The position numbers and the translations under genes are program-made. Below the pieces are notes generated by a model. That model ran no database searches. It was given only the letters and a program-made list of their open reading frames with translations, and was not told where the DNA came from. Source: Nitrosopumilus sp. (GTDB taxonomy: Archaea > Thermoproteota > Nitrososphaeria > Nitrososphaerales > Nitrosopumilaceae). Taken from it: a DNA stretch of 64,000 nucleotides. Where the stretch lies: assembly GCA_965206745.1 (NCBI GenBank), contig OZ242220.1, positions 512,001-576,000 of the forward strand, written 5' to 3'. Positions 5,485 through 25,680 of this stretch are shown here, piece after piece. Position 1 is the first letter of the stretch, and each line of letters begins with the position of its first letter.

Positions 5485-5489
5485 TTAGA

Positions 5490-7069: not shown

Positions 7070-7141
7070 AGGTACCCGAGGGAGTCGAACCCCCTTGTAT
7101 AAGCTTTGCAGGCTCACGCATAACCGTTCTGCCAGAGTACC
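7070..7141 (-). tRNA. tRNA-Cys (GCA)
   Basis: Minus strand reads GGTACTCTGGCAGAACGG..GAGCCTGCAAAGCTT..GGTTCGACTC..GGGTACC-T. Acceptor stem pairs, TTCGA T-loop, anticodon GCA, U discriminator. Confidence 0.93.
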
Positions 7142-8248: not shown

Positions 8249-8255
8249 GTTGGAT

Positions 8256-8486: not shown

Positions 8487-8571
8487 AAGGTGACAAAATA
8501 AAGTTTTATGATATATTTGGAGACCAATACGATAAAATATTCGAGGAACTGCATCAGATATTGATTAATTC

Positions 8572-9195: not shown

Positions 9196-9334
9196 TTTGA
9201 TACGCCAGTAAAAGCATAATAAAAAACACATATGTAAAAATCAAAAATTACTTGCGTCAATCCTGCAAAAATTTGATTCAATCTTGGCTATGATCCTTTT
9301 GGAAGATTCACTTTCTCAGACTCTAAATTATACA

Positions 9335-10255: not shown

Positions 10256-10331
10256 ATGATGGTATTTTTTAATATCTTATTAAATTTTTAGTAGAAAAAA
10301 ATCACAATTGAAAAATATGATCAGATAAAGG

Positions 10332-10931
10332 ATGATTCAAACAATGTTGCTTTTTTCAAAGTGTATTAAGGGTATAACATTCAATAAAAGAATGTCACTT
10401 TCAAGTTCAAAACTTAGATCAGAGATAAAAATTCAAAACACTGTAACCACGGCAGATCTCAAGCAGGAGATAAATCTGACATCTTTTAACAAACACAAAC
10501 ATCTTAGCTCAAATCTAGAACTATACAGATGTGGCTATGTTAAAGATGACACCATGACAGGCAGAGTTACCGTCTTTAGAACCGGAAAACTCATCTCAGT
10601 TGGAACAAAAAGTCCAGGGCAGGCAAAAAAAGAGCTAGCCAAAGCATGTAAGATACTACAGAAATACAAGATTGCAAAACCTGTTAAAATTACTCCACAA
10701 ACAAGAAACATTGTATCAAGATTTGACATGAAGAAAAAATTACCAATAGAAAAACTTGCAAGAACACTGCCAAAATCCATGTATGAGCCAGAACAGTTTC
10801 CTGGACTGATTTATAGAATTCAGGGCAGCTGTGTTGCCCTGATATTTGCATCAGGAAAAGGAGTCATTGCAGGAGCAAAGTCAATAGAGGAAACAAATGC
10901 GGCATTCTTTGATGTAAAATCACGGCTCTAG
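10332..10931 (+). CDS. tbp: TATA-box-binding protein paralog 1 (true start probably MSLSS, ~10392)
   Basis: Two TBP repeats: IQNTVTTADL..VFRTGKLISVGTKS and RNIVS..YEPEQFPGLIYR..LIFASGKGVIAGAKS. Confidence 0.88.
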   Translation: MIQTMLLFSKCIKGITFNKRMSLSSSKLRSEIKIQNTVTTADLKQEINLTSFNKHKHLSSNLELYRCGYVKDDTMTGRVTVFRTGKLISVGTKSPGQAKKELAKACKILQKYKIAKPVKITPQTRNIVSRFDMKKKLPIEKLARTLPKSMYEPEQFPGLIYRIQGSCVALIFASGKGVIAGAKSIEETNAAFFDVKSRL

Positions 10932-11011
10932 CATAAAATACAAAAATAAAACAACTAGAACCATATCCTAAAACTATGGCACAAAAATAGAAATTATGCA
11001 ACAAATATCCG

Positions 11012-11935
11012 TTGACTACCTATCCTACATCTAGAGCGACTATCTTGTTTGAGGAGTCAATAAAGTCAAAGTACACCAAAAAGAACTACACGTCACACCT
11101 TAACCAATTCCTGAGATTTGCAGATATGCATTCTGAGAACCAACTGCTGAAAATACCTCATATGGAACTGCAGTACAAGCTAGAAAATTACCTAATAGAG
11201 TTAAAACATACCACAAACCCCAATTCAATATCGTCAAGGTTTCAGGGGATAAAGCACTTTTGTATTATGAACGAGATCAACCTCAACTGGAATATCATAC
11301 ACAAGATGTTCCCGCAAAGACAGAAAACCCAGAGTCTGCGTTCGTACACTTGCAAGGAAATCAGAGAGTTGTTATCTTGTGCAAAAAGTCTGCGTGATAC
11401 AGCCTTGATTCATTTTTTGGCATCGACTGGTGCAAGAATAGGAGTGTTTGATAATGTACTGTCAATGAAACATCTCAGAAAAATATCACACGGTTGCAAT
11501 GCCGTCAAGGTCTATGCAGGACAAGTTGAGGAATATTGGGTTTTTCTTACACCTCAGGCCTCAAGGGCATTGAATGTTTATCACAAATATCGTAAGCAGC
11601 ATGGTGAGATGTTTTGTGAAGACACTCCAATCTTTGCTATAATGAGTGCATCCCATGGACAGCTGGGATGGAGTGGTGCAAGATCTGCAGTATACAGAAC
11701 AGTCTCAAGAAGCAACATAAGACAAGATAAACAAGATAGTAGATATGATGTGCAGGTGGACCACGGATTCAGAAAGAGATTCAACACTATTCTAAAACTG
11801 GATAATTCTGTAAACTATAACATTGCCGAAAAGCTAATGGGACACAAGAATGGACTTGATGGTGTATATCTGACTCCTACTCTAGATGAACTCTTTGTGG
11901 AATTTAGAAAAGTGATGCATAAAATTGAGGTTTAA
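11012..11935 (+). CDS. Tyrosine recombinase/integrase
   Basis: Catalytic residues intact: STGARIG (R), HGFRKRF (HxxR), LMGH, GVY (Tyr nucleophile). Confidence 0.92.
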   Translation: MTTYPTSRATILFEESIKSKYTKKNYTSHLNQFLRFADMHSENQLLKIPHMELQYKLENYLIELKHTTNPNSISSRFQGIKHFCIMNEINLNWNIIHKMFPQRQKTQSLRSYTCKEIRELLSCAKSLRDTALIHFLASTGARIGVFDNVLSMKHLRKISHGCNAVKVYAGQVEEYWVFLTPQASRALNVYHKYRKQHGEMFCEDTPIFAIMSASHGQLGWSGARSAVYRTVSRSNIRQDKQDSRYDVQVDHGFRKRFNTILKLDNSVNYNIAEKLMGHKNGLDGVYLTPTLDELFVEFRKVMHKIEV

Positions 11936-12044
11936 TCTTTTTTCTTTTAATTCAACCATTTATTGATATGGGACTATTTGAATCAAAAGTCCAAATATTC
12001 TTTCTCAAGAAAAGATATAATTTACAGATGAAATTATCTACAAA

Positions 12045-12878
12045 ATGGCAAAACTTATTTGTACTCTAAAAGAATTTACATATTTTATCGATCCAAGAGT
12101 AAGGAATAATGTTGCCACCATGACAAAACGATCAAAAAATCTCCTAGATTACAAATGTCAAAAATGCAATGAAAAAAAAGAATTAGATGCAGCCCATAAA
12201 CATGGGAGCAGCAGACCTGAGATTATTCGTAATGTTTTAAATAATTACAAAACAAATGATGATGAATATGAAATTGATGATTTGCAGAAAATAATCGATG
12301 AAATCAATGTAGCTCACACTCCCATTGAAGATCACTTTATATTTTTATGCAAAACATGTCACCGAGAATACGATTCATGGACACGGAATCTCGTCAACAC
12401 ACAACTTGAAGATGGCAATAGTAAAAAATCCTACAACATACAACCAAATAAATCACAAGAATCAAAGATACTCACAAATCTAGGTGATAATAACAATCCT
12501 GCTGAAATTTTATTCAAGGATGAGACCCGGAGTTGGAAATACAAGCTTGGTTGGACATCAATCCAAAATAGAAAAAATATCGAAGAACTAATTTCTAAAA
12601 TAGAAGCAAATTTTGATTGCTATCCGATTGCCCGCAATTCATGGTATTATTATAAACGAAATGACAACGACAAACAATTCTCAGCAATAAAAACCAACAT
12701 AAATGATTCAGAGATATGTTTTAGAATAGAACCTCTCTCTTTTGACATTAAGGATCCAAGAATAATTCATGGTAAGAGGTGGTTTTTTCCAGAAGGCAAA
12801 GAAAGAAAAATCAAGATCATCCCAGAAAACTATGAATTAATTTTGAAATGTTTGGATTATTCATACAAAATATCTTGA
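12045..12878 (+). CDS. HNH-type endonuclease with uncharacterised C-terminal domain
   Basis: CQKC..LDAAH..LCKTCHREYD is a Zn-binding HNH pattern. Confidence 0.62.
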   Translation: MAKLICTLKEFTYFIDPRVRNNVATMTKRSKNLLDYKCQKCNEKKELDAAHKHGSSRPEIIRNVLNNYKTNDDEYEIDDLQKIIDEINVAHTPIEDHFIFLCKTCHREYDSWTRNLVNTQLEDGNSKKSYNIQPNKSQESKILTNLGDNNNPAEILFKDETRSWKYKLGWTSIQNRKNIEELISKIEANFDCYPIARNSWYYYKRNDNDKQFSAIKTNINDSEICFRIEPLSFDIKDPRIIHGKRWFFPEGKERKIKIIPENYELILKCLDYSYKIS

Positions 12879-13041
12879 TGTATTATTTCAGATAGAATTA
12901 CCCAATTATCAATTTGAATAGAAGATGAGGTATCTAGTGGATAAATTCAGATTTGTAAAAAATCCTCTAAAAACGAAAATATTGATTAATATTTCCATGT
13001 TGTAGTTGGTTTTTGATCCTAATAGAGAATTATGCTTGTAT

Positions 13042-14340
13042 CTATGTCTCTATAACTTGACCGAACTGTAACTTTATAGTTACAGTTAATCTCATGCATA
13101 AAATTATGATGATTATGAATTGTATACAATTTATTGCGTCAACTCCTGACAGGATTGACGCAATTTTTTGTTGTTCTGGTAGATATTTTGGAACGAGTAT
13201 TAACATTTTTTTAATTTCAGTCTTACTAATTTCTAGAAAAGTTGTTCCATATGATAATCGGATTAGGGTATTTTTATTGTTACATAATAAATAAAAAATG
13301 AATAAATTATCAAATTTATTATTACAAATTATATTTTGAAAACCTTGATTGGTAGATATTGGGTTGGCAGTTATTGCACATTCTCCAATAGTTGCTCTAG
13401 AAGTGAGTAAAATTGTACCTTTTGGTAATAATTTAGCTGAACTATCTTTTAATCCTTTTTCTGTAATCTTTCTTTCAGTATTATTAATGTAAGTTGTTTG
13501 TAACTTTGTAATATCTGTTGGAACCGCCCACAATATATTCCCATTCCAGTATTCTTTATTTTTAGAATTTGGTGTGCCACCACTGACTATTTCTCCTATA
13601 TTATCAAGCTTTGTTATTTTCCATTCTTCTGGAATTTCAATCTCTTTTCTAAATAATCCTTTAACTTTCTTAAACTTTGTATGTCTAATTCCTCTAGCCA
13701 ATAATTCTTGCATCAATCCTTTCTTTAATCGTCCAGCTTTATCCACAACTTGTTGTGTATTTTGTATCAATGCGTCAACATTAGAAAGAATTGATGCAAT
13801 TTTTTGTTGTTCGTTGATAAGAGGTAATAAAATTGGCATAATGGAATATTGTTTTGCATTAACATTGGGTTGAACTCCCCATGTTTGTATCGATAATAAC
13901 CATGCCCAATAAAATTTTGAATGTGTTAAATAAAAAAGAAATTTAGAATCAAGATTTTTATTGTCAGGTTTAAAACGAATTAGATATCCTGCAAATGCAC
14001 ATGTTTCATTACTTTCTTGATGAAGATATGTTTTGCCAACTGTTGCGCCAGTTCTTGCAAATAGAATATCTCCTTCATATAAAATATAATCTTGAGCATC
14101 TTCTTCGGATATTGATTTCCATTCTGAATATCTTAATGTTCCATTATCATTTAGATCTGTGATACGTATGTATCGAGGTAATTTTAGATTTTTTTCTATT
14201 GCTGACACAGATACACCATATTCAGCTTTACCAATACAATTTTCAGATAATGTTGTTTTCTTCCATTCTTCTGGAATCTCCATCACTTTTCCAAAAATCC
14301 ATTTTAGTAACTTGTAACCTTGTCTTGGTTTTCTAGCCAT
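13042..14340 (-). CDS. hsdS: Type I specificity subunit HsdS-A, with a non-homologous C-terminus (putative donor allele)
   Basis: Likely start MARKPRQG at 14340; two TRDs. After KIASILSGVDA the sequence runs into INCIQFIIIII.. instead of the conserved ..LKKGLMQKLLTG helix. Confidence 0.9.
   Translation of the reverse strand: MARKPRQGYKLLKWIFGKVMEIPEEWKKTTLSENCIGKAEYGVSVSAIEKNLKLPRYIRITDLNDNGTLRYSEWKSISEEDAQDYILYEGDILFARTGATVGKTYLHQESNETCAFAGYLIRFKPDNKNLDSKFLFYLTHSKFYWAWLLSIQTWGVQPNVNAKQYSIMPILLPLINEQQKIASILSNVDALIQNTQQVVDKAGRLKKGLMQELLARGIRHTKFKKVKGLFRKEIEIPEEWKITKLDNIGEIVSGGTPNSKNKEYWNGNILWAVPTDITKLQTTYINNTERKITEKGLKDSSAKLLPKGTILLTSRATIGECAITANPISTNQGFQNIICNNKFDNLFIFYLLCNNKNTLIRLSYGTTFLEISKTEIKKMLILVPKYLPEQQKIASILSGVDAINCIQFIIIIILCMRLTVTIKLQFGQVIET
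13135..13167 (-). repeat. Distal inverted repeat, left copy (33 bp; partner 24921-24953)
   Basis: Reverse complement AAAATTGCGTCAATCCTGTCAGGAGTTGACGCA matches 24921-24953 at 32/33 positions. Confidence 0.92.
13699..13812 (-). repeat. Central inverted repeat, left copy (114 bp; partner 24288-24401)
   Basis: Base-by-base comparison gives 114/114 identity to the reverse complement of 24288-24401, with mismatches immediately outside. Confidence 0.96.
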
Positions 14341-14347
14341 AATTGAT

Positions 14348-14890
14348 TTATTTAAGCAACCCATTTAATCTTTGAATTATCTCAAAAGAGGCAGTGTTTA
14401 ACTCATTTGCAGATTTTGCACCTATGATTACAATTTTTCCTGATGCAAAAACAAGACAGCTACAACTATCCAATCCTTTTACTATCATACCTGGAAATGT
14501 TTCAGGATCATACACTACACCATCCATCTTTGTTGATATGATGTCAATCGGTATTGCTTTACCTGTTGTAACTGTAGCTACAATATTTCTAATCTTTGTT
14601 GATAATGTTACATTTTTTATCATGTTGTGTTCTAACAGATGGAATTTAGATTGGTTTAACTGCTCTTTTGCCCTTTTAATTGACTTTGCGCCAACTGATA
14701 TCATCTTACCACTTAGAAAAATAGTAACACGACCATCCATTTCAGGTATTTTGACATATCCGCATCTACCACCATATATTGCCTCATCATAAATACAACA
14801 AGGGATTTTTACAAATTTTAATATGTCTACTTTTTGCTTTAAATCTGCAGTACATACAACATTGTGAATTTTGGGTTTTAGATTCAACAA
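14348..14890 (-). CDS. tbp: TATA-box-binding protein paralog 2 (probable TTG start at 14890 or 14887)
   Basis: IHNVVCTADL..IFLSGKMISVGAKS and IRNIVAT..YDPETFPGMIVK..VFASGKIVIIGAKS; ends 7 bp before the hsdS-A start. Confidence 0.88.
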   Translation of the reverse strand: MLNLKPKIHNVVCTADLKQKVDILKFVKIPCCIYDEAIYGGRCGYVKIPEMDGRVTIFLSGKMISVGAKSIKRAKEQLNQSKFHLLEHNMIKNVTLSTKIRNIVATVTTGKAIPIDIISTKMDGVVYDPETFPGMIVKGLDSCSCLVFASGKIVIIGAKSANELNTASFEIIQRLNGLLK

Positions 14891-14954
14891 AACAGAACAC
14901 TTTGCGGCTCTTAAATATCCCTCATTTTTGATAAAATATTTAGATGATGTAAAT
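14891..14954. promoter_or_regulatory. Putative divergent promoter between tbp2-hsdS-A and hsdR
   Basis: 64-bp gap with TATA-like boxes about 25 bp from each start: ATATTTAAG on the minus strand (14910-14918) and TTTGATAAAA on the plus strand (14927-14936). Confidence 0.4.
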
Positions 14955-17900
14955 ATGTCAAAACTATTGGATTTTAATGTAGGTACAGGTGATGAGGCAG
15001 AACAATCAGAGATCCCAGCACTAGAACAGCTAGTCAAAATGGGATATCAATATATTTCAAAAAATGACCTAAAAAGAGAACGAAGAAAAACAACCGAAGT
15101 CTTATTGTATGACAGATTAAATAATGCAATTAAAAGAATCAATCCTCAACTAGATTCAGATGGAATCGATGATGCAGTAAATCAGATCAAAGAAGATACA
15201 TTTCCATTTACATATGATACAATGAATACTAATGAAAAGATTCGAGCTAAATTAATTGGATTGTCTCAAACAGGAGGACTGGAACCAATAACAGTTGATC
15301 AACATGATAAAAACAGGACCATAAAAAAGACTGTAAAACTTTTTGATTTTGATGATATAGATAACAATGATTTTATTGTTACAAATCAATTTGAATTGCA
15401 GGGACTCAAAAATCTAATATATCCCGACATTGTTTTATTTGTAAATGGCATTCCATTAGTTATCATAGAATGCAAATCACCATTTAGAAGAAATTGGTTA
15501 GTTGATGCAGTAGAAAAAGAAAATTTCAATAAATATCGTTCTAGAGGAGCAGGTTATGAAAAACTAATGTTCTACAATCACATTCTAGTTGCAACTTGTG
15601 GCACACAAGCAAGACATGGAACAATATCGTCAGATTTAAATCATTTTCAAAATAGCAGATGGTCAAGCGCATATCCATTAACTGAAAAAGAGATTGAAGA
15701 AAAATTTGGAAAAAACAGAGAACAAGAGATTTTAATTGCAGGAATGCTTGACAAATCCCATCTTTTGGATTTACTAAAAAATTATGTACTTTATCAAACA
15801 GTTAACAACAAGCGAATCAAAATTATTGCAAAACATCAACAATATAGAGCAGTCAGAAAATGTGTTGAAAAAATTAAAACTGCAAACACCAGACAAGGAG
15901 GAATTATCTGGCACACTCAGGGTTCAGGAAAATCCTTTACAATGCTGTGGGTTGCAAGGCAGGCAATAGAATATGATAATTTGCCTCTAGTCATAGTCAC
16001 AGACAGGCGTCAATTAGATAAACAAATCCACACTACTTTTACACAAGTTGGATTCCCAAATCCAATAAAGGCATACAAATCAGCACAACTTGCAGATTTT
16101 ATAAAATCACCAAAGGGTAAAACCATGATGACTACAATTCAAAAATTTGAGGAAATTAGTGAATCTACAGATGAGAAAATTATCGTTCTAGTGGATGAGG
16201 CACATCGGTCACAGTTTGGAATCGATGCAGGTGCAATGGATAAAGCAATTCCAAATGGGATTTACTTTGGGTTTTCTGGAACTCCAATTGATAACAAAGA
16301 TAAATCCGTATATCGAGTATTTGGTGATCTAATAGACAAATATGGATTTGAAGAATCAAAAGCAGATGGTGCTACCATCCCGATAAGATATGTTGGACGA
16401 TTGCCAAATCTCTTTGTCGAAGATGATGAATCTATCGATATCTTATTTGATAGAATTATTGGTTCTGAACCAAACATGACGCCAGAACTAAAAGAACAGC
16501 TAAAAAAAGAATATGTGAATAAAGATAAAATTATACAAGCTCCTCAAAGGATTAAAAAAATTGCATTGGATATTGTAGAGCATTACACTAATAACATTCA
16601 AGATAATGGCTACAAGGCAATGATTGTGGCATCATCACAAGAATCTGCAGTACTATACAAAGAAGAATTAGATCGCCTCAATGCTCCGCCATCAAAAATC
16701 ATCATGGATCAAAGGATTGGCAAGACAGGAAAAGATGGAACAAGTTGGGATGTCCATTATCTAACCGATTCTCAAAAAAGACAAATAGAAGATTCTTTCA
16801 AAAATCCAGATAATGAGATTAAAATTTTGATAGTTGTTGATATGTTGCTAGTTGGATTTGATGCACCGATAGTCAAAGTGATGTATCTTGATAAATCCCT
16901 CAAAGAGCATGCACTACTTCAGGCAATTGCACGTGTAAACAGGTCATATGATGAATGGAAAGAAGAGGGATTGATTGTAGATTATTATGGCATAACTAAG
17001 AATATTCAAAAAGCATTAGAAACTTTTGATCCAAAAGATATCAAAGGAGCTTGGGAATCTGATGACTCGCAACTAGATATACTAAAAATATATCATACAC
17101 AAACAATGAATTATCTCAAAGGATTAGATAAAAACAAACCGGAACAAATCATAGAAGCATTTGAATCCATTGATAAAAGAGAGGCATTTGAGGATTATTT
17201 TAAAAAATTTTCCAAAGTTCTAAATTCACAATTATATAAAACGGAATCATCTCAATACATTTCTGATTTTAAGGAATTGAGTAAGATCAGAGCATTGTTG
17301 AGAAACTGGTATGAGAATCCAAAAAATTCTACTCGAAAATATGCTGTGATGATTCAGAAATTAATTGATGATGCAATAGGAGCAACTGGTGTTTCTGAAC
17401 TTGTAAAACCAATGGAAATAACATATGATAATTTCTTAGCATATGTCTTAAAATTTAAATCTTCAAGAGCTAGAACTGCACTTATTAAAAATAAAGCAGA
17501 GCAAGTGATTATGGAAAATTACTCCCATAATCCAGTATATTATGAAAAATTGCGGGAATTACTTAAACGATTAATCTCAGAAGAAAAACAAAGAAGAGAA
17601 GAGAATGCGGAGTATGTTGATTCAACCATGGAGGAAAAATTCAAGGAAATTTATAATAAAGCATTAGATATAGAAAAAGAAAGAAAAAATCTTGGGTTTG
17701 ATAGAGACATAGAATTTTCAATATATGGATTAATTAAAGAATATAAAAAAGATAAGAATAAATCAATTGAAATTACAAAGAGATTATCTGAAAAAATATT
17801 ACCTGAGACAGAAATTATTGAATGGCATCATAAATTAAGCATCAAACGAAAGATTGAAAAAATCACATATGATATTCTAGATTCATTTGGTATTGTGGAT

Positions 17901-17960
17901 GAAGATATATCAAAATTATCGGAAAAGATTTTAACATTGCTCAATTGTGATAACTTGTGA
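14955..17960 (+). CDS. hsdR: Type I restriction endonuclease subunit R
   Basis: YPDIVLFVNGIPLVIIECK nuclease motif, WHTQGSGKS, DEAH, QAIARVNR. ATG at 14955 preferred because it avoids overlap with tbp2. Confidence 0.96.
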   Translation: MSKLLDFNVGTGDEAEQSEIPALEQLVKMGYQYISKNDLKRERRKTTEVLLYDRLNNAIKRINPQLDSDGIDDAVNQIKEDTFPFTYDTMNTNEKIRAKLIGLSQTGGLEPITVDQHDKNRTIKKTVKLFDFDDIDNNDFIVTNQFELQGLKNLIYPDIVLFVNGIPLVIIECKSPFRRNWLVDAVEKENFNKYRSRGAGYEKLMFYNHILVATCGTQARHGTISSDLNHFQNSRWSSAYPLTEKEIEEKFGKNREQEILIAGMLDKSHLLDLLKNYVLYQTVNNKRIKIIAKHQQYRAVRKCVEKIKTANTRQGGIIWHTQGSGKSFTMLWVARQAIEYDNLPLVIVTDRRQLDKQIHTTFTQVGFPNPIKAYKSAQLADFIKSPKGKTMMTTIQKFEEISESTDEKIIVLVDEAHRSQFGIDAGAMDKAIPNGIYFGFSGTPIDNKDKSVYRVFGDLIDKYGFEESKADGATIPIRYVGRLPNLFVEDDESIDILFDRIIGSEPNMTPELKEQLKKEYVNKDKIIQAPQRIKKIALDIVEHYTNNIQDNGYKAMIVASSQESAVLYKEELDRLNAPPSKIIMDQRIGKTGKDGTSWDVHYLTDSQKRQIEDSFKNPDNEIKILIVVDMLLVGFDAPIVKVMYLDKSLKEHALLQAIARVNRSYDEWKEEGLIVDYYGITKNIQKALETFDPKDIKGAWESDDSQLDILKIYHTQTMNYLKGLDKNKPEQIIEAFESIDKREAFEDYFKKFSKVLNSQLYKTESSQYISDFKELSKIRALLRNWYENPKNSTRKYAVMIQKLIDDAIGATGVSELVKPMEITYDNFLAYVLKFKSSRARTALIKNKAEQVIMENYSHNPVYYEKLRELLKRLISEEKQRREENAEYVDSTMEEKFKEIYNKALDIEKERKNLGFDRDIEFSIYGLIKEYKKDKNKSIEITKRLSEKILPETEIIEWHHKLSIKRKIEKITYDILDSFGIVDEDISKLSEKILTLLNCDNL

Positions 17961-18652
17961 TTAAAAAAATAAAATATCTTGATTCTGTGATAGAATATGA
18001 CTTAATCAAAAGTAAACGTAGAAAGACATCACAAATCACAATTACACCTGATAAAATAACGATAAGAACACCAGATACGAAATCTTCAGCAGATGTAGAA
18101 AAAATTGTACAAAAAAAGGCACAATGGATATTTAAAAAACAATTACATTTTATTGGACAAAAAAAACCAGTTTTTTCATTAAAATCGCTTTTACTAATTT
18201 ACGGCAAAAATTACAAAATCAAGATTATTCCCAACAATACGGAAAAAACATGTCTGAATGGAGATGTTATAGAATTTCACATATCACAAAAGAAATACAA
18301 TACAAAGCAGATCAAAGCACAGTATGATGCATATTTGAGGAAAAAAGCGTACGTATTGTTTCCAAAATGGACCAAAGTATTAGCAGAAAAAATTGATGTG
18401 CATCCAACCAAAATCAACATCAAAGAGCTCCGAGGTAGATGGGGAAGTGCTACTGCTACAGGTGCGATCAATCTTAATTCCAATCTGATAAAGGCTCCAA
18501 AAAAGATCATCAGATATGTTATTTTTCATGAATTATGTCATTTTAAAATCAAAGAACATTCACATCATTTTTGGAATCTAATGGGACAACATATGCCTGA
18601 ATATAAGGAATCAATAAAATGGTTAGAAGCAAATGGAATCAAAATCAGTTAA
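17957..18652 (+). CDS. YgjP/DUF45 (M48-like) zinc metallopeptidase-family protein
   Basis: RWGS, HELCH (HExxH), HSHHFW; GTGA overlap with hsdR. This family commonly follows type I hsdR. Confidence 0.88.
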   Translation: MIKKIKYLDSVIEYDLIKSKRRKTSQITITPDKITIRTPDTKSSADVEKIVQKKAQWIFKKQLHFIGQKKPVFSLKSLLLIYGKNYKIKIIPNNTEKTCLNGDVIEFHISQKKYNTKQIKAQYDAYLRKKAYVLFPKWTKVLAEKIDVHPTKINIKELRGRWGSATATGAINLNSNLIKAPKKIIRYVIFHELCHFKIKEHSHHFWNLMGQHMPEYKESIKWLEANGIKIS

Positions 18653-18679
18653 GATGTATTTTTGATGCTAAAATAGTAT

Positions 18680-19790
18680 GATATCGTCTATTCAAAAACC
18701 AAATACAAAAATGTATTCCACAAAGAAAAAGATAACAAGGTTGTTCAGAAAATGCTTACAATGTACATGGTATTGAAAGAAAAAAATGACATATGAAAAG
18801 ACAGATCATATACTTATGCATTCTTCTGATGGAGTATCCATATGGGTACAAAGAGGATCGTCTTTATGCCTTCGTAGAGGAGAGATCTTCCATGAATTAA
18901 TAGGTCTCCATAGATATCATATACAAAACTTAACAAGATAATGCACCCTAACGAATTTTTGTTCATCAGTTTATCACACATCAAATCTTGACGGAAATAA
19001 ATATGCGTGATTATTTTTACCAGTAATCCAAACACATGTTTTTTAATCATCAGTTAATCATATTGTTAGTTATTGATAATATGAGTTAAAAAAATTACAG
19101 TTCTTTTATTCAATGGCTTCAAGCTACCTGTCAGATTACAAACGATCTTGACCTGCAAATCATATCTCATCACACCACACTACAAAAGACAGCGGCAAGA
19201 ATAAATGAAAAGATACTATACATGGTAATAAAACGATTCATCAATCATGTATATGCAAGAGAAATATTTGGAATTGATATATTTGGAATTGAGACAGGCC
19301 GTGCAATAAAACATTATTCATGGAGGGTTCAAAATCAGATATATATTTATCAAGGCATATCTCTATGTTCTGACATATCAACCCAGATTGTCTGCACTAC
19401 AATTGTAGATAATCACCAGTATCTCATGACGTCAAACATGTTTCTTCATCGCTATCAAAAATACATCCTCACAAATTAGTAAAGCCAATGATACCTGACA
19501 AGGGAATAGGATTCAGAATTAATCCACAAATTGATACTCAGTAACAGCATACATTCTGTAATTCCTGTAAGAAGCAGGACAAACAGGGTCAGCAAGGTAA
19601 AAAAGACATGCAGAAAAGAGATGTATCGAAAATTTGAAAAAGAGACATATTTTCAGAGAAATTAAAAAGAGTTGTCTTTTCGGTAATAAAGAGAATGTTT
19701 GATCAAAGATTCTTTCATGTAATGAATCTTAGATAGTAAAAGAAACACCACATAAAATATTGGTCTATAACTGTCACAGAATATACCTGA
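18680..19790 (+). pseudogene. Degraded IS4/IS5-type DDE transposase
   Basis: Frameshifted fragments: GIDIFGIETGRAIKHYSWR (IDSTG-like), HDVKH, DKG/DSE, IHSVIPVR, YFQRN*..FSVIKRMF. Limits approximate. Confidence 0.65.
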
Positions 19791-19866
19791 TCGTAAATTT
19801 AGAGATGATTTCTATATTGTCGATCTAACTAAATCTATATTACTTGAAGACTATCATAGTTATTAG

Positions 19867-21375
19867 TTGTCAGATAAAATTACCCTTGAAGAATTAAAAT
19901 CTTATCTTTGGAAAGCCACTGATATTTTACGGGGATCTCTTGATCCTCAAGAATATAGACAACCGGTAATGACTGTTCTATTTCTAAAGAGATTAAATGA
20001 TACTTTTGAAGAAAATGTTGAAAAATTAATCAAAGAGGGAAATACACAAAAAAAAGCAGAACAAAAATTTCGACACAAGTTCTATGTTCCAGAATCTGCA
20101 CGATGGCATGTACTATCTGATGCATCATCGAATCTGGGTGAAATAATTGATAATGTCTGTAGAGATATTGAAAACAACGTTTCACAACTAGAAGGAGTTC
20201 TCACCAATACTACATACAATGATAAAAAAAAATATCCTGATGATAAATTACGAAAATTAATTGCACATTTTAATGAACTTACACTAAAGAACCAAAATCT
20301 AGAGAAAGAAGACATCTTTGGAGATGCATACGAGTATTTATTGGAGACATTTGCAGATGAAACAAAAAAGAAAGGTGGTGAATTTTTTACTCCAAGGGAA
20401 ATTGTTCAACTTTTAGTAAACATTACAAAGCCACAGGAAAAAATGAAAATCTCAGATCCGACATGTGGTTCTGGTGGTATGTTGGTTGTGTCTAGAAAAT
20501 ATGTCAAAGATCACAGAGGAAATATCGAAAACATTGTACTTGATGGTCAAGAATCTAATTATGGAAATTTAGGAATGTGTAAGATGAATCTAATGTTGCA
20601 TGGTGTGGAGAATTTTAGAATAGAATATGGTGATACCTTGTCTGATCCTAAACTTATTGACTGTGGAAAATTGAAACAATATGATAGAGTATTGGCAAAT
20701 TTTCCATTTTCCATGGATTGGGATAACTCTACTGCATCAAAAGATCCATACAATAGATTTGGATACGGTATTGCACCAGCCAAAGATAAGGCAGACTATG
20801 CATTTATCTTGCACATACTATCATCTCTAAACGAAAAAGGACAAGCAGCCATTGTCTGTTCACAAGGTGTTTTGTTCAGAGGAGGTGAGGAAGGGAAGAT
20901 TAGAAAGAATATGATAATGGGTAATGGATCAAATAATCTTGCAAATGATGTAATTGAGGCAATAATTGCATTGCCTCAAAAGATGTTCTGGGGAACAAGT
21001 ATTCCTGCTTGTGTAATGATACTAAACAAGAATAAGCCTACAAAAAGAAGAAGAAAAATAATATTCATTTACGGCGCAAAGGATTTTGAGGAGGGAAAGA
21101 ATAGAAACAAACTACGCGATGTAGATATGAAAAAAATTATCTCAGCGTTTGAGAAATTTGAAGATATTGACAAATATTGTCATGTTGCAAATATTGAAGA
21201 GTTGGAGGAAAATGAATTTAATCTCAACGTTCCAAGATATGTTGATATTTCAGAGCCTGAAGAAGATATTGATATTCAGAATGCATGGGATGAACTCATA
21301 GAGATCAACACAGTACAAGAAAAACTGAAAAAACAAGTAAAAACAGATCTCAAGGAATTAGGAATAAAGATCTGA
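19867..21375 (+). CDS. hsdM: Type I R-M methyltransferase
   Basis: FGDAYEYL, GEFFTP, DPTCGSGGML, motif IV variant NFPF, FNLNVPRYV. Confidence 0.95.
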   Translation: MSDKITLEELKSYLWKATDILRGSLDPQEYRQPVMTVLFLKRLNDTFEENVEKLIKEGNTQKKAEQKFRHKFYVPESARWHVLSDASSNLGEIIDNVCRDIENNVSQLEGVLTNTTYNDKKKYPDDKLRKLIAHFNELTLKNQNLEKEDIFGDAYEYLLETFADETKKKGGEFFTPREIVQLLVNITKPQEKMKISDPTCGSGGMLVVSRKYVKDHRGNIENIVLDGQESNYGNLGMCKMNLMLHGVENFRIEYGDTLSDPKLIDCGKLKQYDRVLANFPFSMDWDNSTASKDPYNRFGYGIAPAKDKADYAFILHILSSLNEKGQAAIVCSQGVLFRGGEEGKIRKNMIMGNGSNNLANDVIEAIIALPQKMFWGTSIPACVMILNKNKPTKRRRKIIFIYGAKDFEEGKNRNKLRDVDMKKIISAFEKFEDIDKYCHVANIEELEENEFNLNVPRYVDISEPEEDIDIQNAWDELIEINTVQEKLKKQVKTDLKELGIKI

Positions 21376-21599
21376 TCAATGATATCTGCTCTATAAATTA
21401 GGAAATATTTTGTACAATTTCAGATAAGACATCAAATGATATCTTTGTTGCATGTAATTGTGTAGTTAATCCTACAACGTTTTTCCATAGGATTCATTTG
21501 CAGGTAAATCAGTTGACGTATGTTGTGGTTTGTTACAGGAAAGAATATTGAGCTGTTGTGTTATGTGTCGTATTTCAGTTGTTATAATCCATGCATCCA

Positions 21600-22630
21600 A
21601 AATATTGTAGATCTAGACTTACGATCAAAAATTTATCTCCTGTTGCAATTATCACCCTGTTGAGATATCGGATAACATCCATGTTGTATCGAACTGTTCT
21701 AAAGTGTTCGGAGATTTTATCCCACATATCACTGTTGGATAATATTCAGATATACACAGATCTCATTTTGCCTGATGTCCACATTTCTCCACTGCATCCA
21801 AATGTGGAGATCTTTTTGGTAGGTAGATCATCTTGATGTTCTTGTCTCTTTTGAGCAGCTCTTGGATATTGTTTGTCAGATGTTGAGGTGTCTTATCCTC
21901 TGTTACTACAATTTTACCAAAATGTCTTTGCATGTCAATGATGTATTTTTCAAATATCTTTATATCAATCAATCATATGTCCTAAAGAATTGCTTGTCAT
22001 CAATTGAAAGTGCACCATACACTGCAACTTTTTGATGCAGTCCAATGTATGGAATCATTATAGATTTCCTTTGATAGATCAGTATTTACATCACGGTGTT
22101 GCGTCATGAATAAAGAAAGATTTGTTTTGACTAGAATAATAAATCTCTTGTGTTTTAGGAATCCAATCTTGTTTTGTGTACGGCGTTGCCATCTGTATAC
22201 TGCCTTACTGTCTTCTCTGTTAATGTATATTCTTCTGGCACATTTAGGGATCCTATTGTATATCTGCATCATCTTGTTGAGTGATGTTATATGCAACGTT
22301 GCATTGGTTTTATGGAATATGTGTTGATATAATTTTGACAGAGTGATCTGCAAATTAGATATCTCATTCATTATGCGGCCAATCTTTCTGCGTTGTATTT
22401 TTGAATGCTTACCATTACGAGAAAGATCCCTGAAGACGTTCATGCTGGCCTCGTTGAATCTTGATATTCATTTGCCTACTCATTCTGAACAACACATAGT
22501 ATGTTGGCAATCTCCTCATACATCACCTTTTTTCCAATACCATGTGAACTATAATCATTCATCTACTGATTAGAATATTTTTTTCCTTGTCACATATTTT
22601 TTTAAATTTTTTATGTTTGGGTTATTCATG
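21600..22630 (-). pseudogene. Degraded IS630-family transposase
   Basis: Fragments: EIANILC..DLSRNG (HTH region) and EDKTPQH..YLPKRSPHLDAVE (D-x-A-x-x-H and LP-x-x-SP-x-LN-x-IE consensus), with many stops and frameshifts. Limits approximate. Confidence 0.72.
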
Positions 22631-23178
22631 TCATACATGAACTGAGATGATCCTTATACTCAGAGTTTTACAAAATTTGATACATGAATGAGTTTTTTCT
22701 CGTCAGTCTAGTCTGATTCTGCGAATCACACTAGCAAAAATCTAACATATGATAAGAGGTAATTTTATATGGAAATATTTTTTCTACTCTGCAAACTGTA
22801 AATATATACGGATGACAATGAAGGCATGTTACAAGAATTCCTGAAGTACAAATTATTCATTTACTTGTTAATCAAACACATAACAACACCAACAGAATCA
22901 AGATCATACCAACTATGTCTAGATGATTTGATGGTTTTTTAAATTATCATGCATAGTTTTTTTAGACATCCTGTCTCCTTTCTTCCATTTCATTTGCATT
23001 CTCGCTCGTATTTTCTTGAATAGTCTTTTGATCTCTGGTATTGCGTAAATTCTTTAGATTTCATTGGTATTTTTGAGGCATATCGTTTAAAAGTTTTTTG
23101 ATTTGATGTGCTACTGATCTATAAGCTTTTTGTTATTTTTAGAGGTGAGTTTATGGGCAACATTGATTTCTTCTCATT

Positions 23179-23742
23179 ATGCAAATTTTTATATCTCATG
23201 CCAAAGAAGATAATCCCATAGTCTACCAAATATTGAAAATGCTAGACGATAATCAAATTCGTCATTGGCAGGATCTAACTCGAATAGATGTAAGTAGTTC
23301 TATTAACAAAGAGATAAACGATGCAATTAGTTCTTCTAGTCATTTTTTATTAATATGGTCAAAAAATGCAAATAAATCAACGTTTGTTCAAAAAGAATAT
23401 AATTCAGCTATTACTCCAGATTATGATTATAAATTAAAGAAAATAATTATAAGATTAGATGATACTCGTCTACCTGCATTATTGGCTGATTTACGATATT
23501 ATAGAATTAGTTCTGATGAATTAGAAAAAACTATGCATGAGATAATTTTTGACATTAAGAAACTAGATAATGAAGATGAAAGACAAAAGAAATTTGATGA
23601 TTATCTAGATGAAAAATTTGACAATATTTTTATTGCAGATCACGAATACAGCACATCATATGCATTAAAAAATATAGATAACAAAACATATCATGAAAAC
23701 ATGCTAAGTTGGGAAGATGTTTTAAATGAGGAAGGAAATTGA
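23179..23742 (+). CDS. TIR-domain protein
   Basis: IFISHAKED box 1, EINDAISSSSHFLLIWSKN..STFVQKE (putative catalytic Glu); TTGA overlap with the hsdS-B start. Confidence 0.87.
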   Translation: MQIFISHAKEDNPIVYQILKMLDDNQIRHWQDLTRIDVSSSINKEINDAISSSSHFLLIWSKNANKSTFVQKEYNSAITPDYDYKLKKIIIRLDDTRLPALLADLRYYRISSDELEKTMHEIIFDIKKLDNEDERQKKFDDYLDEKFDNIFIADHEYSTSYALKNIDNKTYHENMLSWEDVLNEEGN

Positions 23743-25052
23743 AAAAAAGAAATAGATACAAGAGAGTAAAAGGATTGTTTGGTGAATATGAAGAAATTCC
23801 AGAAGAATGGGGCTTTTCAATTTTAAATAAACTAACTTTACATAATGATCAGAGTTCCATCCGAATGGGTCCATTTGGAAGTAGTCTAAAAAAACATGAA
23901 TTATTAGATGAAGGAAAAATTAAAACAATCTGGATTGAAAATATTGTAAATAATGAATTTTCATGGGAATATCAGAAATATATCTCTGAAGAAAAATATA
24001 AACAACTTGGAAATTTCACAGTAAAACCAAATGATCTTCTTATTACAATGATGGGAACTTTGGGAAGAGTAGCTATAGTTCCAAAAGACATCGATATTGC
24101 CATAATCTCGTCACATCTTCTAAAAATTACATTAGATAATGACAAAATGATTTCAGAATATTTGTATTATTTCTTAAAATCAAATTTTGCATTTCGACAG
24201 ATTACAAAAGAATCTAGAGGGATGGTAATGGGAGGTTTGAATACAAAAATTATTAAAAATCTATGGATAATTATTCCAACAATTCTAGAACAACAAAAAA
24301 TTGCATCAATTCTTTCTAATGTTGACGCATTGATACAAAATACACAACAAGTTGTGGATAAAGCTGGACGATTAAAGAAAGGATTGATGCAAGAATTATT
24401 GATAAAAGGAATAAAACATGACCAATTTAAGAAAATAAAAGGATTATTTGGTAAAGAGATAGAGATTCCTGAAGATTGGGAGATCAAGAAAATTAATGAA
24501 ATAGGAGAGATAATAACTGGTAATACTCCATCAACAGATAACCAAGAATATTATGGTAATGAATATTTGTGGGTTAGCCCATCAGATATAAATCAACAAA
24601 AATTTATTGATAATACTAATTCAAAATTATCCCGTAAAGGATTCGAAGTTTGTAGAAGTATACCTAAATATGCGGTTTTAATTGTTTGTATTGGTTCGAC
24701 TATAGGAAAAATTGTAATAGCATCCAAACAAATGTCAACTAACCAACAAATTAATTCAATAATTTGTAAGCAATTTGATCCAGAATTTGTGTATTATCAA
24801 ATACTAAAAAATAATAAATTAATCAAAAACATATCTAATCAAGCTGCAGTTCCAATTTTAAACAAAACAGATTTTGGCATAATTAAAATCATTATACCCA
24901 CTAATTATGAAGAACAAACCAAAATTGCATCAATCCTGTCAGGAGTTGACGCATACATTCAAAAAAATCAAGAATACAAGAAACATCTGGAACTTCTAAA
25001 GAAAGGATTAATGCAAAAATTACTAACTGGTAAAATACGTGTAAAAGTATGA
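23739..25052 (+). CDS. hsdS: Type I specificity subunit HsdS-B (complete)
   Basis: Two TRDs and both conserved helices; ends LKKGLMQKLLTGKIRVKV. Confidence 0.95.
   Translation: MKKRNRYKRVKGLFGEYEEIPEEWGFSILNKLTLHNDQSSIRMGPFGSSLKKHELLDEGKIKTIWIENIVNNEFSWEYQKYISEEKYKQLGNFTVKPNDLLITMMGTLGRVAIVPKDIDIAIISSHLLKITLDNDKMISEYLYYFLKSNFAFRQITKESRGMVMGGLNTKIIKNLWIIIPTILEQQKIASILSNVDALIQNTQQVVDKAGRLKKGLMQELLIKGIKHDQFKKIKGLFGKEIEIPEDWEIKKINEIGEIITGNTPSTDNQEYYGNEYLWVSPSDINQQKFIDNTNSKLSRKGFEVCRSIPKYAVLIVCIGSTIGKIVIASKQMSTNQQINSIICKQFDPEFVYYQILKNNKLIKNISNQAAVPILNKTDFGIIKIIIPTNYEEQTKIASILSGVDAYIQKNQEYKKHLELLKKGLMQKLLTGKIRVKV
24288..24401 (+). repeat. Central inverted repeat, right copy (114 bp)
   Basis: Identical to the reverse complement of 13699-13812. 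Confidence 0.96.
24921..24953 (+). repeat. Distal inverted repeat, right copy (33 bp)
   Basis: 32/33 match to the reverse complement of 13135-13167. Confidence 0.92.
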
Positions 25053-25194
25053 CTTTGGGAATGTGCCTAGAATGGAAAGATCATCAAAATTCAGAACAAG
25101 ACTGATTCCTATGCCTAGAATGCCAGTTGTATCCTTGGGGGAGCCACAAAACGGGTATTAGGTATAAAATACCCCTTTCCTCACTTGACGATTA

Positions 25195-25680
25195 GTGGAT
25201 AGAATAAAGCGACTCTCATTTGAGGTTCTAGTAGATCACAAATCCAAGTTTGGCGAGGACTTTGCTGATAACAAAAAGGCACTTGATCTGATATCGATAA
25301 TCCGTTCAAAGGGATTAAAAAATGAGGTTGCAGGATATATTACAAAATTTATCAAAAACGAGATTCGTGAGGAGAAGACCAAGCAGGCAAGAATTGAGGC
25401 GGCAAAATCTGAGCAGCAGTTTGAGGAACCATCTGAGGCAGAACTCGGAAATGATGTACCTCAAGAGGCAGATAAAGTGACAACAGATGATAATACAGAT
25501 CAAGCAGTATCTGACATCCCTGATATTACAGAGCCTGCCACAGCAGACACAGCTCAAACAGTACCTGATATCCCTGAGACTGTAGAACCTGCCACAGCAG
25601 ACACAGCTCAAACAGTATCTGAGACTGCAGAACCTGTCACTGAGAATCCATCCGAACCAGTCAAAGAACCTGAATCATAA
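25195..25680 (+). CDS. rps17e: 30S ribosomal protein S17e with acidic repetitive C-terminal extension
   Basis: KFGEDFADNKKAL..IRSKGLKNEVAGYIT is the S17e signature. Confidence 0.88.
   Translation: MDRIKRLSFEVLVDHKSKFGEDFADNKKALDLISIIRSKGLKNEVAGYITKFIKNEIREEKTKQARIEAAKSEQQFEEPSEAELGNDVPQEADKVTTDDNTDQAVSDIPDITEPATADTAQTVPDIPETVEPATADTAQTVSETAEPVTENPSEPVKEPES

What the first reader, a model, noticed from the sequence alone, without database searches (positions are those of the whole stretch)
11012..25052. Candidate archaeal phase-variable type I R-M shufflon with two nested invertible segments
Seen: hsdS-A (-) and hsdS-B (+) point outward around hsdR-ygjP-hsdM-TIR. Their four TRDs differ, yet they share a perfect 114-bp inverted repeat between TRD1 and TRD2 (13699-13812 / 24288-24401) and a 32/33-bp inverted repeat after TRD2 (13135-13167 / 24921-24953). 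An intact tyrosine recombinase lies ~1.1 kb outside. Established: inverted hsdS pairs shuffled by tyrosine recombinases give phase-variable specificity in bacteria (Mycoplasma pulmonis hsd loci with HvsR; pneumococcal SpnD39III/ivr). Inference: flipping the ~10.5 kb or ~11.8 kb segment would place TRD1A or TRD1B with TRD2A or TRD2B in front of the single complete C-terminus. That gives four methylation/restriction specificities. I am not aware of such a switch characterised in archaea, but I could not search to confirm this.
Basis: partly seen in the sequence, partly recalled or inferred. Interest (0 to 1): 0.92.

Follow-up and report, generated by a model that had tools for sequence, protein, structure and literature searches.

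The report
Candidate invertible restriction-specificity switch, ammonia-oxidising archaeon
An ammonia-oxidising archaeon carries a DNA-restriction system built like the bacterial switches that change their DNA target by flipping gene segments, and relatives share the design and its own recombinase, but flipping itself is not yet shown.

Summary
Two full-length hsdS genes (13042-14364 minus, 23739-25052 plus) face outward around TBP2-hsdR-ygjP-hsdM-TIR. They share a 114/114 inverted repeat at the central conserved region and a 32/33 repeat at the distal one. Only hsdS-B keeps the C-terminal helix.

New evidence comes from relatives.
- The recombinase 1.1 kb away belongs to a short (~300 aa) clade. 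I found it only in the window's own family, labelled Nitrosopumilaceae.
- 25 of 37 orthologue loci have hsdS within 1.5 kb, against 0 of 12 loci of more distant integrases.
- 16 of 37 have inverted hsdS pairs with repeats at the same positions.
- One complete and one tail-less hsdS recur in two other loci.

Inversion itself is not shown. k=31 contigs cannot resolve the 114-bp repeat. In one low-depth run, two contig ends fall exactly where a mixture with the distal-repeat recombinant predicts. That is suggestive only.

Verdict: a probable hsdS shufflon, a new member of a known kind. Invertase-linked hsdS loci are already tabulated for Euryarchaeota (PMC7672463). This scan noted archaeal hsdS shufflons before on other DNA.

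The parts
10332..10931 (+). TBP paralogue 1, directly upstream of the recombinase
   Evidence: Pfam TBP E 2.5e-35. 90% identical copy beside a Rec orthologue in L055. A role in the system is inferred only.
11012..11935 (+). Short tyrosine recombinase (Rec, 307 aa), candidate invertase
   Evidence: NCBIfam XerA_Arch 57.8 bits, below its cut-off of 220. Pfam Phage_integrase 25.9 bits, below 27.1. R142, H251-x-x-R254, H278 and Y286 are invariant in 16 of 16 aligned sequences. The best listed fold matches are tyrosine recombinases; 51 matches reach E<=0.001. hsdS lies within 1.5 kb in 25 of 37 orthologue loci.
12045..12878 (+). ORF277, unknown, between Rec and hsdS-A; membership not shown
   Evidence: No Pfam or NCBIfam hit. 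Only weak partial tblastn hits, in 2 of 49 loci.
13042..14364 (-). hsdS-A: TRD1A - central conserved region - TRD2A - start of the distal conserved region, then a non-homologous tail (13042-13134)
   Evidence: Methylase_S x2. The tail lacks the conserved helix.
13135..13167 (.). Distal repeat, left arm (IR2-L), with dyad TGCGTCAA-N12-TTGACGCA
13699..13812 (.). Central repeat, left arm (IR1-L), 114 bp
14348..15037 (-). TBP paralogue 2, upstream of and tightly coupled to hsdS-A
   Evidence: Pfam TBP E 1.8e-30. TBP lies next to hsdS or Rec in 11 of 37 orthologue loci.
14871..17960 (+). hsdR (longest ORF; the true start is probably further downstream)
   Evidence: HSDR_N, SWI2_SNF2 and T1R_D3-like domains.
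17957..18652 (+). YgjP-like metallopeptidase gene
   Evidence: Pfam YgjP-like E 3.6e-49. Follows hsdR in relatives too.
19867..21375 (+). hsdM
   Evidence: N6_Mtase E 8.5e-103 and HsdM_N.
22000..22443 (-). ORF147, unknown, inside the invertible segment
   Evidence: No family hit. A weak relative (26% identity) lies between hsdS pieces in L059.
23179..23742 (+). TIR-domain gene, overlapping the hsdS-B start by 4 nt
   Evidence: Pfam TIR_2 E 2.3e-18. Not found in any of the related loci.
23739..25052 (+). hsdS-B: TRD1B - central conserved region - TRD2B - complete distal helix (24954-25052)
   Evidence: Methylase_S x2. The complete tail is shared with L069, L070 and L090.
24288..24401 (.). Central repeat, right arm (IR1-R)
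24921..24953 (.). Distal repeat, right arm (IR2-R)

Best explanation
This is a complete type I restriction-modification locus arranged as an hsdS shufflon. It lies in a low-GC insertion between tatD and the S17e gene of a Nitrosopumilaceae archaeon.

Two outward-facing hsdS genes carry four different target-recognition domains. They share two nested inverted-repeat pairs. One pair sits at the start of the central conserved helix (114 bp, perfect). The other sits at the start of the distal helix (33 bp, one mismatch). Only the right-hand position ends in a complete distal helix.

Recombination between the central pair would flip about 10.5 kb. Recombination between the distal pair would flip about 11.8 kb. 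Either flip would place TRD1A or TRD1B with TRD2A or TRD2B in front of that single complete tail, giving up to four specificities. The left position would store a tail-less allele.

The adjacent short tyrosine recombinase is the likely catalyst. Each repeat holds an 8-bp dyad around a 12-bp spacer, and the spacer is the same within a pair and different between pairs. That would restrict exchange to matching pairs.

Shown: the anatomy, the recombinase features, and the recurrence of the design in relatives. Inferred: that inversion happens, that Rec catalyses it, and that each allele changes the methylation target.
For: Anatomy. 114/114 and 32/33 inverted repeats lie at the two conserved-region starts, in frame. 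The dyad occurs only at these 4 sites in the genome.

Tail asymmetry. hsdS-A loses homology right after the distal repeat, while hsdS-B has the helix ...IQKNQEYKKHLELLKKGLMQKLLTGKIRVKV. One complete and one tail-less or degenerate partner recur in L069 and L090.

Recombinase. The catalytic residues R, H-x-x-R, H and Y are invariant in 16 of 16 sequences. The fold matches XerA, Cre and IntI.

Linkage. hsdS lies within 1.5 kb of Rec in 25 of 37 orthologue loci (>=54% identity), against 0 of 12 loci of 37-48% relatives. An earlier, overlapping sample gave 10 of 13 against 0 of 17, or 0 of 15 without two unpublished genomes.

Repeats in relatives. 16 of 37 orthologue loci have inverted hsdS pairs with repeats between them. 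Examples are 204 nt at 97.5% plus 62 nt at 96.8% in L080, and 283 nt at 99.3% plus 55 nt at 100% in L074.

Same layout elsewhere. L070 has Rec, then hsdS(-), hsdM-ygjP-hsdR, then hsdS(+), and its central conserved regions are also 114/114 identical.

Concerted evolution. The central regions are more alike within a locus (100, 100 and 91% in the window, L070 and L089) than the 69% mean over 281 comparisons between loci; that pool mixes central and distal regions.

Reads. In run X2, contigs 13135-13811 and 24930-25563 start exactly where a k=31 simulation of reference plus distal-repeat recombinant predicts. The reference alone predicts no break there.
Against: No read or contig showing an inverted junction was seen. 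Read laying listed no strand-changing joint.

Run X1 (depth about 440) shows the reference-only contig 24372-25563 across the right distal repeat. Any distal recombinant there is rare or absent.

X2 is shallow and uneven (depth 5-58), and Logan contig ends are not pure unitig ends. The two coincidences are therefore not proof. They would also arise from gene conversion or from a second strain.

12 of 37 Rec orthologue loci have no hsdS within 9 kb, 4 of them on contigs shorter than 4.5 kb. Rec sits beside tatD in several genomes. It may therefore have another role or an additional one.

The dyad is written in codons of a conserved HsdS peptide (IASILSxVDA). A related core appears in a second hsdS family. 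Its conservation is not independent evidence of a recombinase site.

No near-identical locus in another orientation was found in 61 related genomes, or in metagenome contigs with a 62-nt piece of the repeat (0 hits).
Confidence: 0.6

Rival explanations
1. The locus is static. Two hsdS genes arose by duplication or acquisition. The perfect 114 bp is a recent one-off gene conversion. Rec is the integrase, or a remnant, of the island inserted between tatD and the S17e gene. hsdS-A is a decaying pseudogene or a second, independently used specificity subunit.
For: GC is 0.29-0.36 over 8-26 kb, against 0.40-0.47 further on and 0.41 genome-wide. tatD and S17e are adjacent in a relative (L057), so 8.3-25.2 kb is an insertion. 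Rec lies next to tatD without any hsdS in L064 and L092. XerC/D integrases and type I S subunits are both among the commonest genes of thaumarchaeal integrated elements (PMC6563490, Table 1 passage). No inverted junction was seen.
Against: No direct repeats flank the insertion. Rec is short (~300 aa) and two-domain like Xer and Cre, whereas its 37-48% relatives sit in open frames of 350-450 aa. hsdS is adjacent in 25 of 37 orthologue loci against 0 of 12, and in many loci Rec lies between the inverted hsdS copies. A one-off conversion does not explain why the same two repeat positions and the tail asymmetry recur in other genera.
Confidence: 0.2
2. Inversion does occur, but through general homologous recombination (RadA) across the 114-bp identity. 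Rec is not needed for it, or acts only on the short distal pair.
For: 114 bp of perfect identity is ample for homologous exchange (established knowledge, not tested here). Huang et al. note that some invertons may invert spontaneously without a dedicated invertase (PMC7672463, passage). Some relatives have repeats of 200-860 nt (L065, L074, L084, L112), longer than any site-specific core needs.
Against: The 33-bp distal pair, and the 29-62-nt pairs in relatives, are short for homologous exchange, yet they are kept at 92-100% identity. Rec is specifically linked to such loci.
Confidence: 0.15
3. Assembly artefact: the 114-bp identity, or one of the hsdS copies, comes from a collapse or mis-join.
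For: None found.
Against: In X1 the repeat contig has depth 850. All four flanking contigs are present at 404-478 with 0 differences. This matches the reference-only k-mer simulation at IR1.
Confidence: 0.02

Closest known systems
Streptococcus pneumoniae SpnD39III / cod (ivr) locus with the tyrosine recombinase PsrA/CreX
   Same: One expressed hsdS plus partial hsdS copies in inverted orientation. Repeats lie at the TRD boundaries. A locus-encoded tyrosine recombinase is present, and TRD reassortment gives several specificities (PMC4190663 and PMC4948785, abstracts in search listings; PMC7672463, passages).
   Different: There the fixed part is the 5' end behind hsdM, and only hsdS pieces flip. 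Here the fixed part is the 3' helix, and the whole hsdR-hsdM operon lies in the flipping segment. The recombinase was not compared by sequence, because no PsrA sequence was available to me. Inversion is proven there and not here.
Mycoplasma pulmonis hsd1/hsd2 loci with HvsR
   Same: Two hsdS genes in opposite orientation flank hsdR and hsdM, so the enzyme genes flip with the segment. This layout is recalled from Dybvig et al. 1998, which is not held. The invertase lies outside the inverting segment. [quoted passage not shown]
   Different: HvsR acts from a distant place on three loci, whereas here Rec is 1.1 kb away. The host is an archaeon. No sequence comparison was made.
Bacteroides fragilis phase-variable type I R-M (BfiA clade)
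   Same: The invertase gene lies outside the invertons but in the same locus (PMC7672463 passage; PMC7641763 abstract in a search listing).
   Different: It is a bacterial, host-associated system with a different invertase clade, and it is shown by experiment.
Invertase-positive multi-hsdS loci tabulated for Euryarchaeota
   Same: Archaeal type I loci with opposed hsdS genes and an invertase homologue. They were predicted by computation only: Table 1 lists 4 of 827 loci and Table 2 lists 11 of 1140 (PMC7672463, passages).
   Different: Those carry clade 2 (TvrR-like) or clade 5 invertases and lie in Euryarchaeota. This one is in Nitrososphaerota, with a recombinase clade not found outside its family in 0 of 344 other genomes of the phylum.

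Membership tests
hsdS inversion shufflon ('epigenetic inverton' of a type I R-M system) | At least two hsdS genes in opposite orientation in one type I locus | tested here: met
   hsdS-A (-) and hsdS-B (+), both with Methylase_S x2, together with hsdR and hsdM.
hsdS inversion shufflon ('epigenetic inverton' of a type I R-M system) | Inverted repeat pairs at TRD boundaries, so that exchange keeps the reading frame | tested here: met
   114/114 at the central conserved region and 32/33 at the distal one. Both encode the same residues in both genes.
hsdS inversion shufflon ('epigenetic inverton' of a type I R-M system) | Recombinase gene in or beside the locus (within 2 kb of an R-M gene in Huang et al. 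2020) | tested here: met
   Rec ends 1,106 nt from hsdS-A. Its clade is linked to hsdS in 25 of 37 loci.
hsdS inversion shufflon ('epigenetic inverton' of a type I R-M system) | Both orientations or recombinant junctions observed in a population | tested here: inconclusive
   k=31 contigs cannot resolve the 114-bp repeat. Two X2 contig ends fit a distal-repeat recombinant, and X1 shows the reference only.
hsdS inversion shufflon ('epigenetic inverton' of a type I R-M system) | Each allele gives a different methylation motif | not testable with these tools
   Needs SMRT or nanopore methylome data.
Tyrosine recombinase superfamily | Curated family score | tested here: not met
   Pfam PF00589 25.9 bits against a cut-off of 27.1. 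NCBIfam XerA_Arch 57.8 against 220. phmmer against the PDB gave 0 hits.
Tyrosine recombinase superfamily | Catalytic R...H-x-x-R...H/W...Y residues and a two-domain fold | tested here: met
   R142, H251, R254, H278 and Y286 are invariant in 16 of 16 sequences. The model has pLDDT 75.4. Top fold matches are XerA, Cre, IntI, XerH and lambda Int, with 51 matches at E<=0.001.
Type I restriction-modification system | hsdR, hsdM and hsdS all present and open | tested here: met
   (HSDR_N/SWI2_SNF2, N6_Mtase/HsdM_N, Methylase_S).
Integrated mobile element with its own integrase | Direct att repeats at both ends, often in a tRNA gene | tested here: not met
   No direct repeat pair spans 8.2-25.2 kb. 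tRNA-Cys (7070-7141) lies about 1.1 kb outside the left edge. The insertion itself (tatD|S17e adjacency in L057) and the low GC are real.

The most novel reading that the evidence does not exclude
The locus is one member of a Nitrosopumilaceae-wide family of active archaeal hsdS shufflons. They are run by a recombinase clade of their own, and a TBP paralogue is often wired to one hsdS copy. On this reading, largely free-living ammonia oxidisers would switch restriction and methylation specificity by programmed inversion. That would be a first for Nitrososphaerota, and it runs against the reported enrichment of such switches in host-associated bacteria. The switch might also be coupled to an alternative transcription-initiation factor.
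Probability: 0.3. Interest if true: 0.7.

Novelty: new member of a known kind. Interest (0 to 1): 0.5.

Why it matters
Programmed hsdS inversion is well studied in bacteria as a source of changing phage defence and of epigenetic phase variation. One survey found it mostly in host-associated species: 216 of 235 (PMC7672463, passage). Systematic scans left archaea out (PMC9881135, Discussion passages) or had very few archaeal data sets. One scan had 42, with 12 invertons, none described as hsdS in the passages I read (PMC10028968). Another had 6, with no inversion (PMC5903667).

If active, this locus and its roughly two dozen relatives would show that abundant marine and soil ammonia oxidisers use the same bet-hedging device. 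They would do so with a recombinase clade of their own. The locus also gives a concrete target: four repeat sites, one enzyme, and a testable set of four methylation motifs.

Tried and rejected
Reads. Read laying on X1-X4 gave no verdict on the 114-bp repeat, because inversion there creates no new 31-mer (simulation). X3 (raw reads, about 1 in 100 read) gave only 17 partial, spurious matches. X4 covers only the S17e side. Most loose ends in X1 and X2 (8 of 9 looked up) match nothing in the genome and come from other organisms.

Extra contig. The 2,066-nt contig C2 of the assembly could have been an alternative junction. It has no similarity to C1.

Near-identical copies elsewhere. The metagenome scan with 62 nt of the repeat gave 0 hits. 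The scan with the degenerate distal dyad gave 1 contig of 1,028 nt, which I did not analyse. The search of 61 related genomes found no near-identical locus. The hsdS protein searches found no relative above 80% identity over half the length. I therefore could not compare flipped states between strains.

L112 as a flipped haplotig of L067 (same isolate label). Rejected: the pieces are only 92-96% alike, and the middle differs.

L065 against L074. The 99.3% identical hsdR-hsdM core with a shared TRD at different positions shows TRD movement on an evolutionary scale. It is not a simple inversion.

Dyad as independent proof of a recombinase site. Rejected as independent evidence, because it is encoded by a conserved peptide and a related core occurs in a second hsdS family.

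Other negative results. There are no att-like direct repeats around the insertion. The recombinase alone gave no hit against the PDB by phmmer, and the profile gave only XerA at E 0.004.

Literature. Searches found no paper describing an hsdS inversion switch in Nitrososphaerota, and no experimentally shown one in any archaeon. The main text of Atack et al. 2020 (PMC7394358) has no occurrence of 'archaea'. Two archaeal R-M reviews mention no inversion. Supplementary tables of PMC7672463, PMC7394358 and PMC10028968 were closed and may list archaeal loci.

Full report
THE OBSERVATION

The ORF list and Pfam scan give the following order.
- TBP paralogue 1: 10332-10931 (+).
- A tyrosine-recombinase-like gene, Rec: 11012-11935 (+).
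- ORF277, unknown: 12045-12878 (+).
- hsdS-A: 13042-14364 (-).
- TBP paralogue 2: 14348-15037 (-).
- hsdR: 14871-17960 (+).
- ygjP: 17957-18652 (+).
- hsdM: 19867-21375 (+).
- ORF147, unknown: 22000-22443 (-).
- A TIR-domain gene: 23179-23742 (+).
- hsdS-B: 23739-25052 (+).
- The S17e and Cgi121 genes follow.

The central repeat 13699-13812 / 24288-24401 is identical at 114 of 114 positions. The distal repeat 13135-13167 / 24921-24953 has a single mismatch, at 13159/24929. Similarity runs on past the central repeat into the start of TRD2 (227 nt at 88%). The proteins are 39% identical overall, and their TRD1s are unrelated.

After the distal repeat, hsdS-B continues with a conserved helix. hsdS-A continues with 30 unrelated, hydrophobic residues.

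WHERE IT SITS

The genome has 1.86 Mb in 2 contigs and 41% GC. Named relatives of its proteins and loci are Nitrosopumilus, Nitrosopumilaceae and Cenarchaeum.

GC is 0.29-0.36 across 8-26 kb and 0.40-0.47 beyond. tatD and the S17e gene are neighbours in a relative (L057). So about 8.3-25.2 kb is an insertion between them. No direct repeats bound it.

A second, unrelated type I system lies at 3-6431.

THE RECOMBINASE

Curated models score it below their cut-offs. Against that:
- In an alignment of 16 relatives, R142, H251-x-x-R254, H278 and Y286 are invariant.
- An AlphaFold model (pLDDT 75.4) matches XerA, Cre, IntI, XerH and lambda Int, with 51 matches at E<=0.001.
- It is short (307 aa).

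In 301 genomes of its family, a clade of 54-73% identity and about 300 aa stands apart from relatives of 47% identity or less that sit in longer open frames. At E<=1e-70 the clade was found in 9 of 56 other genomes of the family. It was found in 0 of 344 genomes of 60 other families of the phylum. The protein database holds more than 120 unnamed clusters at 58% identity or more.

LINKAGE TO hsdS

This is the main new evidence. A scan of one genome per species returned 49 loci with up to 9 kb on each side. I split them by identity to Rec alone: 37 at 54% or more, and 12 at 37-48%. One search then gave these counts.
- hsdS lies within 1.5 kb of Rec in 25 of 37 orthologue loci, against 0 of 12 in the distant class.
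- Of the 12 orthologue loci without hsdS, 4 are contigs shorter than 4.5 kb.
- 16 of 37 hold two or more hsdS pieces in opposite orientation with inverted repeats between them.
- Examples: L080, 204 nt at 97.5% and 62 nt at 96.8%, nested around Rec. L074, 283 nt at 99.3% and 55 nt at 100%. L094, 130 nt at 95%, 41 nt at 93% and 31 nt at 100%. L090, three nested pairs.

An earlier, overlapping sample with 1.5-kb flanks gave 10 of 13 against 0 of 17. Two of the 17 are from unpublished genomes; without them the count is 0 of 15.

G019 (L061) has two hsdS genes around hsdM but no Rec, no repeat and no dyad.

THE SAME LAYOUT ELSEWHERE

L070 has Rec, hsdS(-), hsdM-ygjP-hsdR and hsdS(+). Its two central conserved regions are also 114/114 identical.

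L069 has an outward-facing pair around ygjP-hsdR | hsdM, with TBP and Rec outside.

The alignment shows that one partner ends in the helix ...IQKNQEYKKKLExLKKGLMQKLLTGKIRVKV in the window, L069, L070 and L090. The other partner stops being HsdS just after SILSGVDA in the window and L090. In L069 its tail is degenerate. The L070 partner is cut by the end of the locus.

Central regions are more alike within a locus (100, 100, 91, 82 and 73%) than the 69% mean of the 281 between-locus comparisons, a pool that mixes central and distal regions. This fits repeated exchange between the copies.

THE SITES

Each of the four repeats holds TGCRTCAA-N12-TTGAYGCA. This pattern occurs nowhere else in the genome. 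The spacer is the same within a pair and differs between pairs. For a tyrosine recombinase, that would restrict exchange to matching pairs; this step is inference.

The dyad also occurs in hsdS genes of L050, L051, L053, L054, L058, L059 and L060. However, it is written in codons of the conserved peptide IASILSxVDA. A related core (TGAATCAA-N12-TTGAYGCA) occurs in a second hsdS family that also sits beside Rec orthologues. I therefore do not count it as independent evidence.

READS

Two runs of one study hold the locus, X1 with a 0.99 share of words and X2 with 0.92. Both are kept only as k=31 contigs.

In X1 the repeat is a single contig at depth 850. Its four flanks are at 404-478 with no differences. 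This rules out an assembly collapse but cannot tell orientation. My simulation shows that inversion at the 114-bp repeat creates no new 31-mer.

For the distal repeat, the simulation predicts the following.
- The reference alone gives one contig, 24372-25563. This is what X1 shows.
- A mixture of the reference with the recombinant gives contigs starting at 13135 and at 24930.

X2 has contigs 13135-13811 and 24930-25563. That fits exchange between the two distal arms in part of the X2 population, whether by crossover or by conversion.

I treat it as a pointer only, for these reasons.
- X2 is shallow and uneven (depth 5-58).
- Logan contig ends deviate from pure unitig ends elsewhere (13790 and 13811 in X1).
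- X1 has an unexplained break at 13149/13150.
- No junction-bearing contig was listed.

WHAT IT MOST LIKELY IS

It is most likely a type I R-M shufflon with one complete 3' end. Flipping between the central pair or the distal pair brings TRD1A or TRD1B together with TRD2A or TRD2B in front of that end. The flips cover 10,475 and about 11,750 nt between the arms.

Because the N-terminal halves move together with their upstream genes, the complete allele is read either from the hsdR-ygjP-hsdM-TIR side or from the TBP2 side.

I put this at 0.6. The rivals are:
- a static locus with a one-off conversion and an island integrase, 0.2;
- inversion by general homologous recombination without Rec, 0.15;
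- an artefact, 0.02.

COMPARISON WITH WHAT IS KNOWN

The design is that of bacterial hsdS invertons: the S. pneumoniae cod/ivr locus with PsrA, and B. fragilis with an invertase outside the inverton. With the enzyme genes inside the flipping segment, it also resembles the M. pulmonis hsd loci. That layout is recalled, because the paper is not held.

Huang et al. tabulate invertase-positive multi-hsdS loci in Euryarchaeota: 4 of 827 and 11 of 1140 (passages). They also report that 216 of 235 inverton-bearing species are host-associated.

Coverage of archaea in other scans was thin.
- Milman et al. scanned bacteria only and say so.
- Chanin et al. had 42 archaeal long-read sets.
- Sekulovic et al. 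had 6, with no inversion.

My searches found no description for Nitrososphaerota and no experimental case in archaea. Supplementary tables were closed.

Notes of this scan report archaeal hsdS shufflons on other DNA. These are Methanobrevibacter and Methanosphaera, with flipped forms said to be found in metagenomes, plus first-reader notes on other genomes with look-alike recombinases and sites. I did not check those notes.

VERDICT

It is a new member of a known kind, with a recombinase clade that I found only in Nitrosopumilaceae. Interest 0.5.

Noticed in passing
window 10332-10931 and 14348-15037; L067, L069, L077, L078, L079, L081, L082, L086, L088, L109, L112: TBP (TATA-binding protein) paralogues travel with the Rec/hsdS module. 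The window has two. One is directly upstream of hsdS-A, and one is upstream of Rec. A TBP hit lies in 11 of 37 Rec-orthologue loci and in 0 of 12 distant-integrase loci. The TBP beside Rec in L055 is 90% identical to TBP1.
   Followed up: partly
window 8249-25194: The whole module is an insertion between tatD and the S17e gene, which are adjacent in L057. Rec also lies beside tatD in L064, L091 and L092. This may be a preferred or an ancestral site.
   Followed up: partly
window 25495-25656: The S17e gene has a C-terminal extension of 54-nt tandem repeats. X1 and X2 each hold a contig that skips one unit, with the loose end at 25568 continuing at 25623.
   Followed up: partly
window 3-6431 (-): A second type I R-M system: hsdR running off the window, hsdS 1889-3088, an 800-aa hsdM 3082-5484 and an unknown 313-aa ORF. 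It has no repeats shared with the shufflon and no dyad.
   Followed up: partly
window 23179-23742: A TIR-domain gene overlaps the hsdS-B start by 4 nt, so a possible NADase-type defence protein is co-transcribed with the specificity subunit. It was not found in any related locus.
   Followed up: partly
L065 and L074: Two genomes share a 4,322-nt hsdR-hsdM core at 99.3%. Their Rec genes are only 73% alike. One TRD (97.9% alike) sits at the TRD1 position in one genome and at the TRD2 position in the other. This points to recent transfer of the core and movement of domains.
   Followed up: partly
window 18706-18823, 21767-21925, 22343-22560: Short intergenic stretches inside the R-M locus are 73-85% like a place elsewhere in the genome (C1:1036806-1037256), in both orientations. 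Their nature is unknown.
   Followed up: no
L086: A 3,086-nt contig filed under a Hyphomicrobiaceae bacterium MAG carries TBP, a Rec orthologue (61%) and hsdS. It is probably a mis-binned archaeal contig.
   Followed up: no
window 24954-25052 and L069 607-750: The complete distal helix region is 90% identical in DNA between the window and L069. That is far more conserved between genomes than the central conserved region.
   Followed up: no
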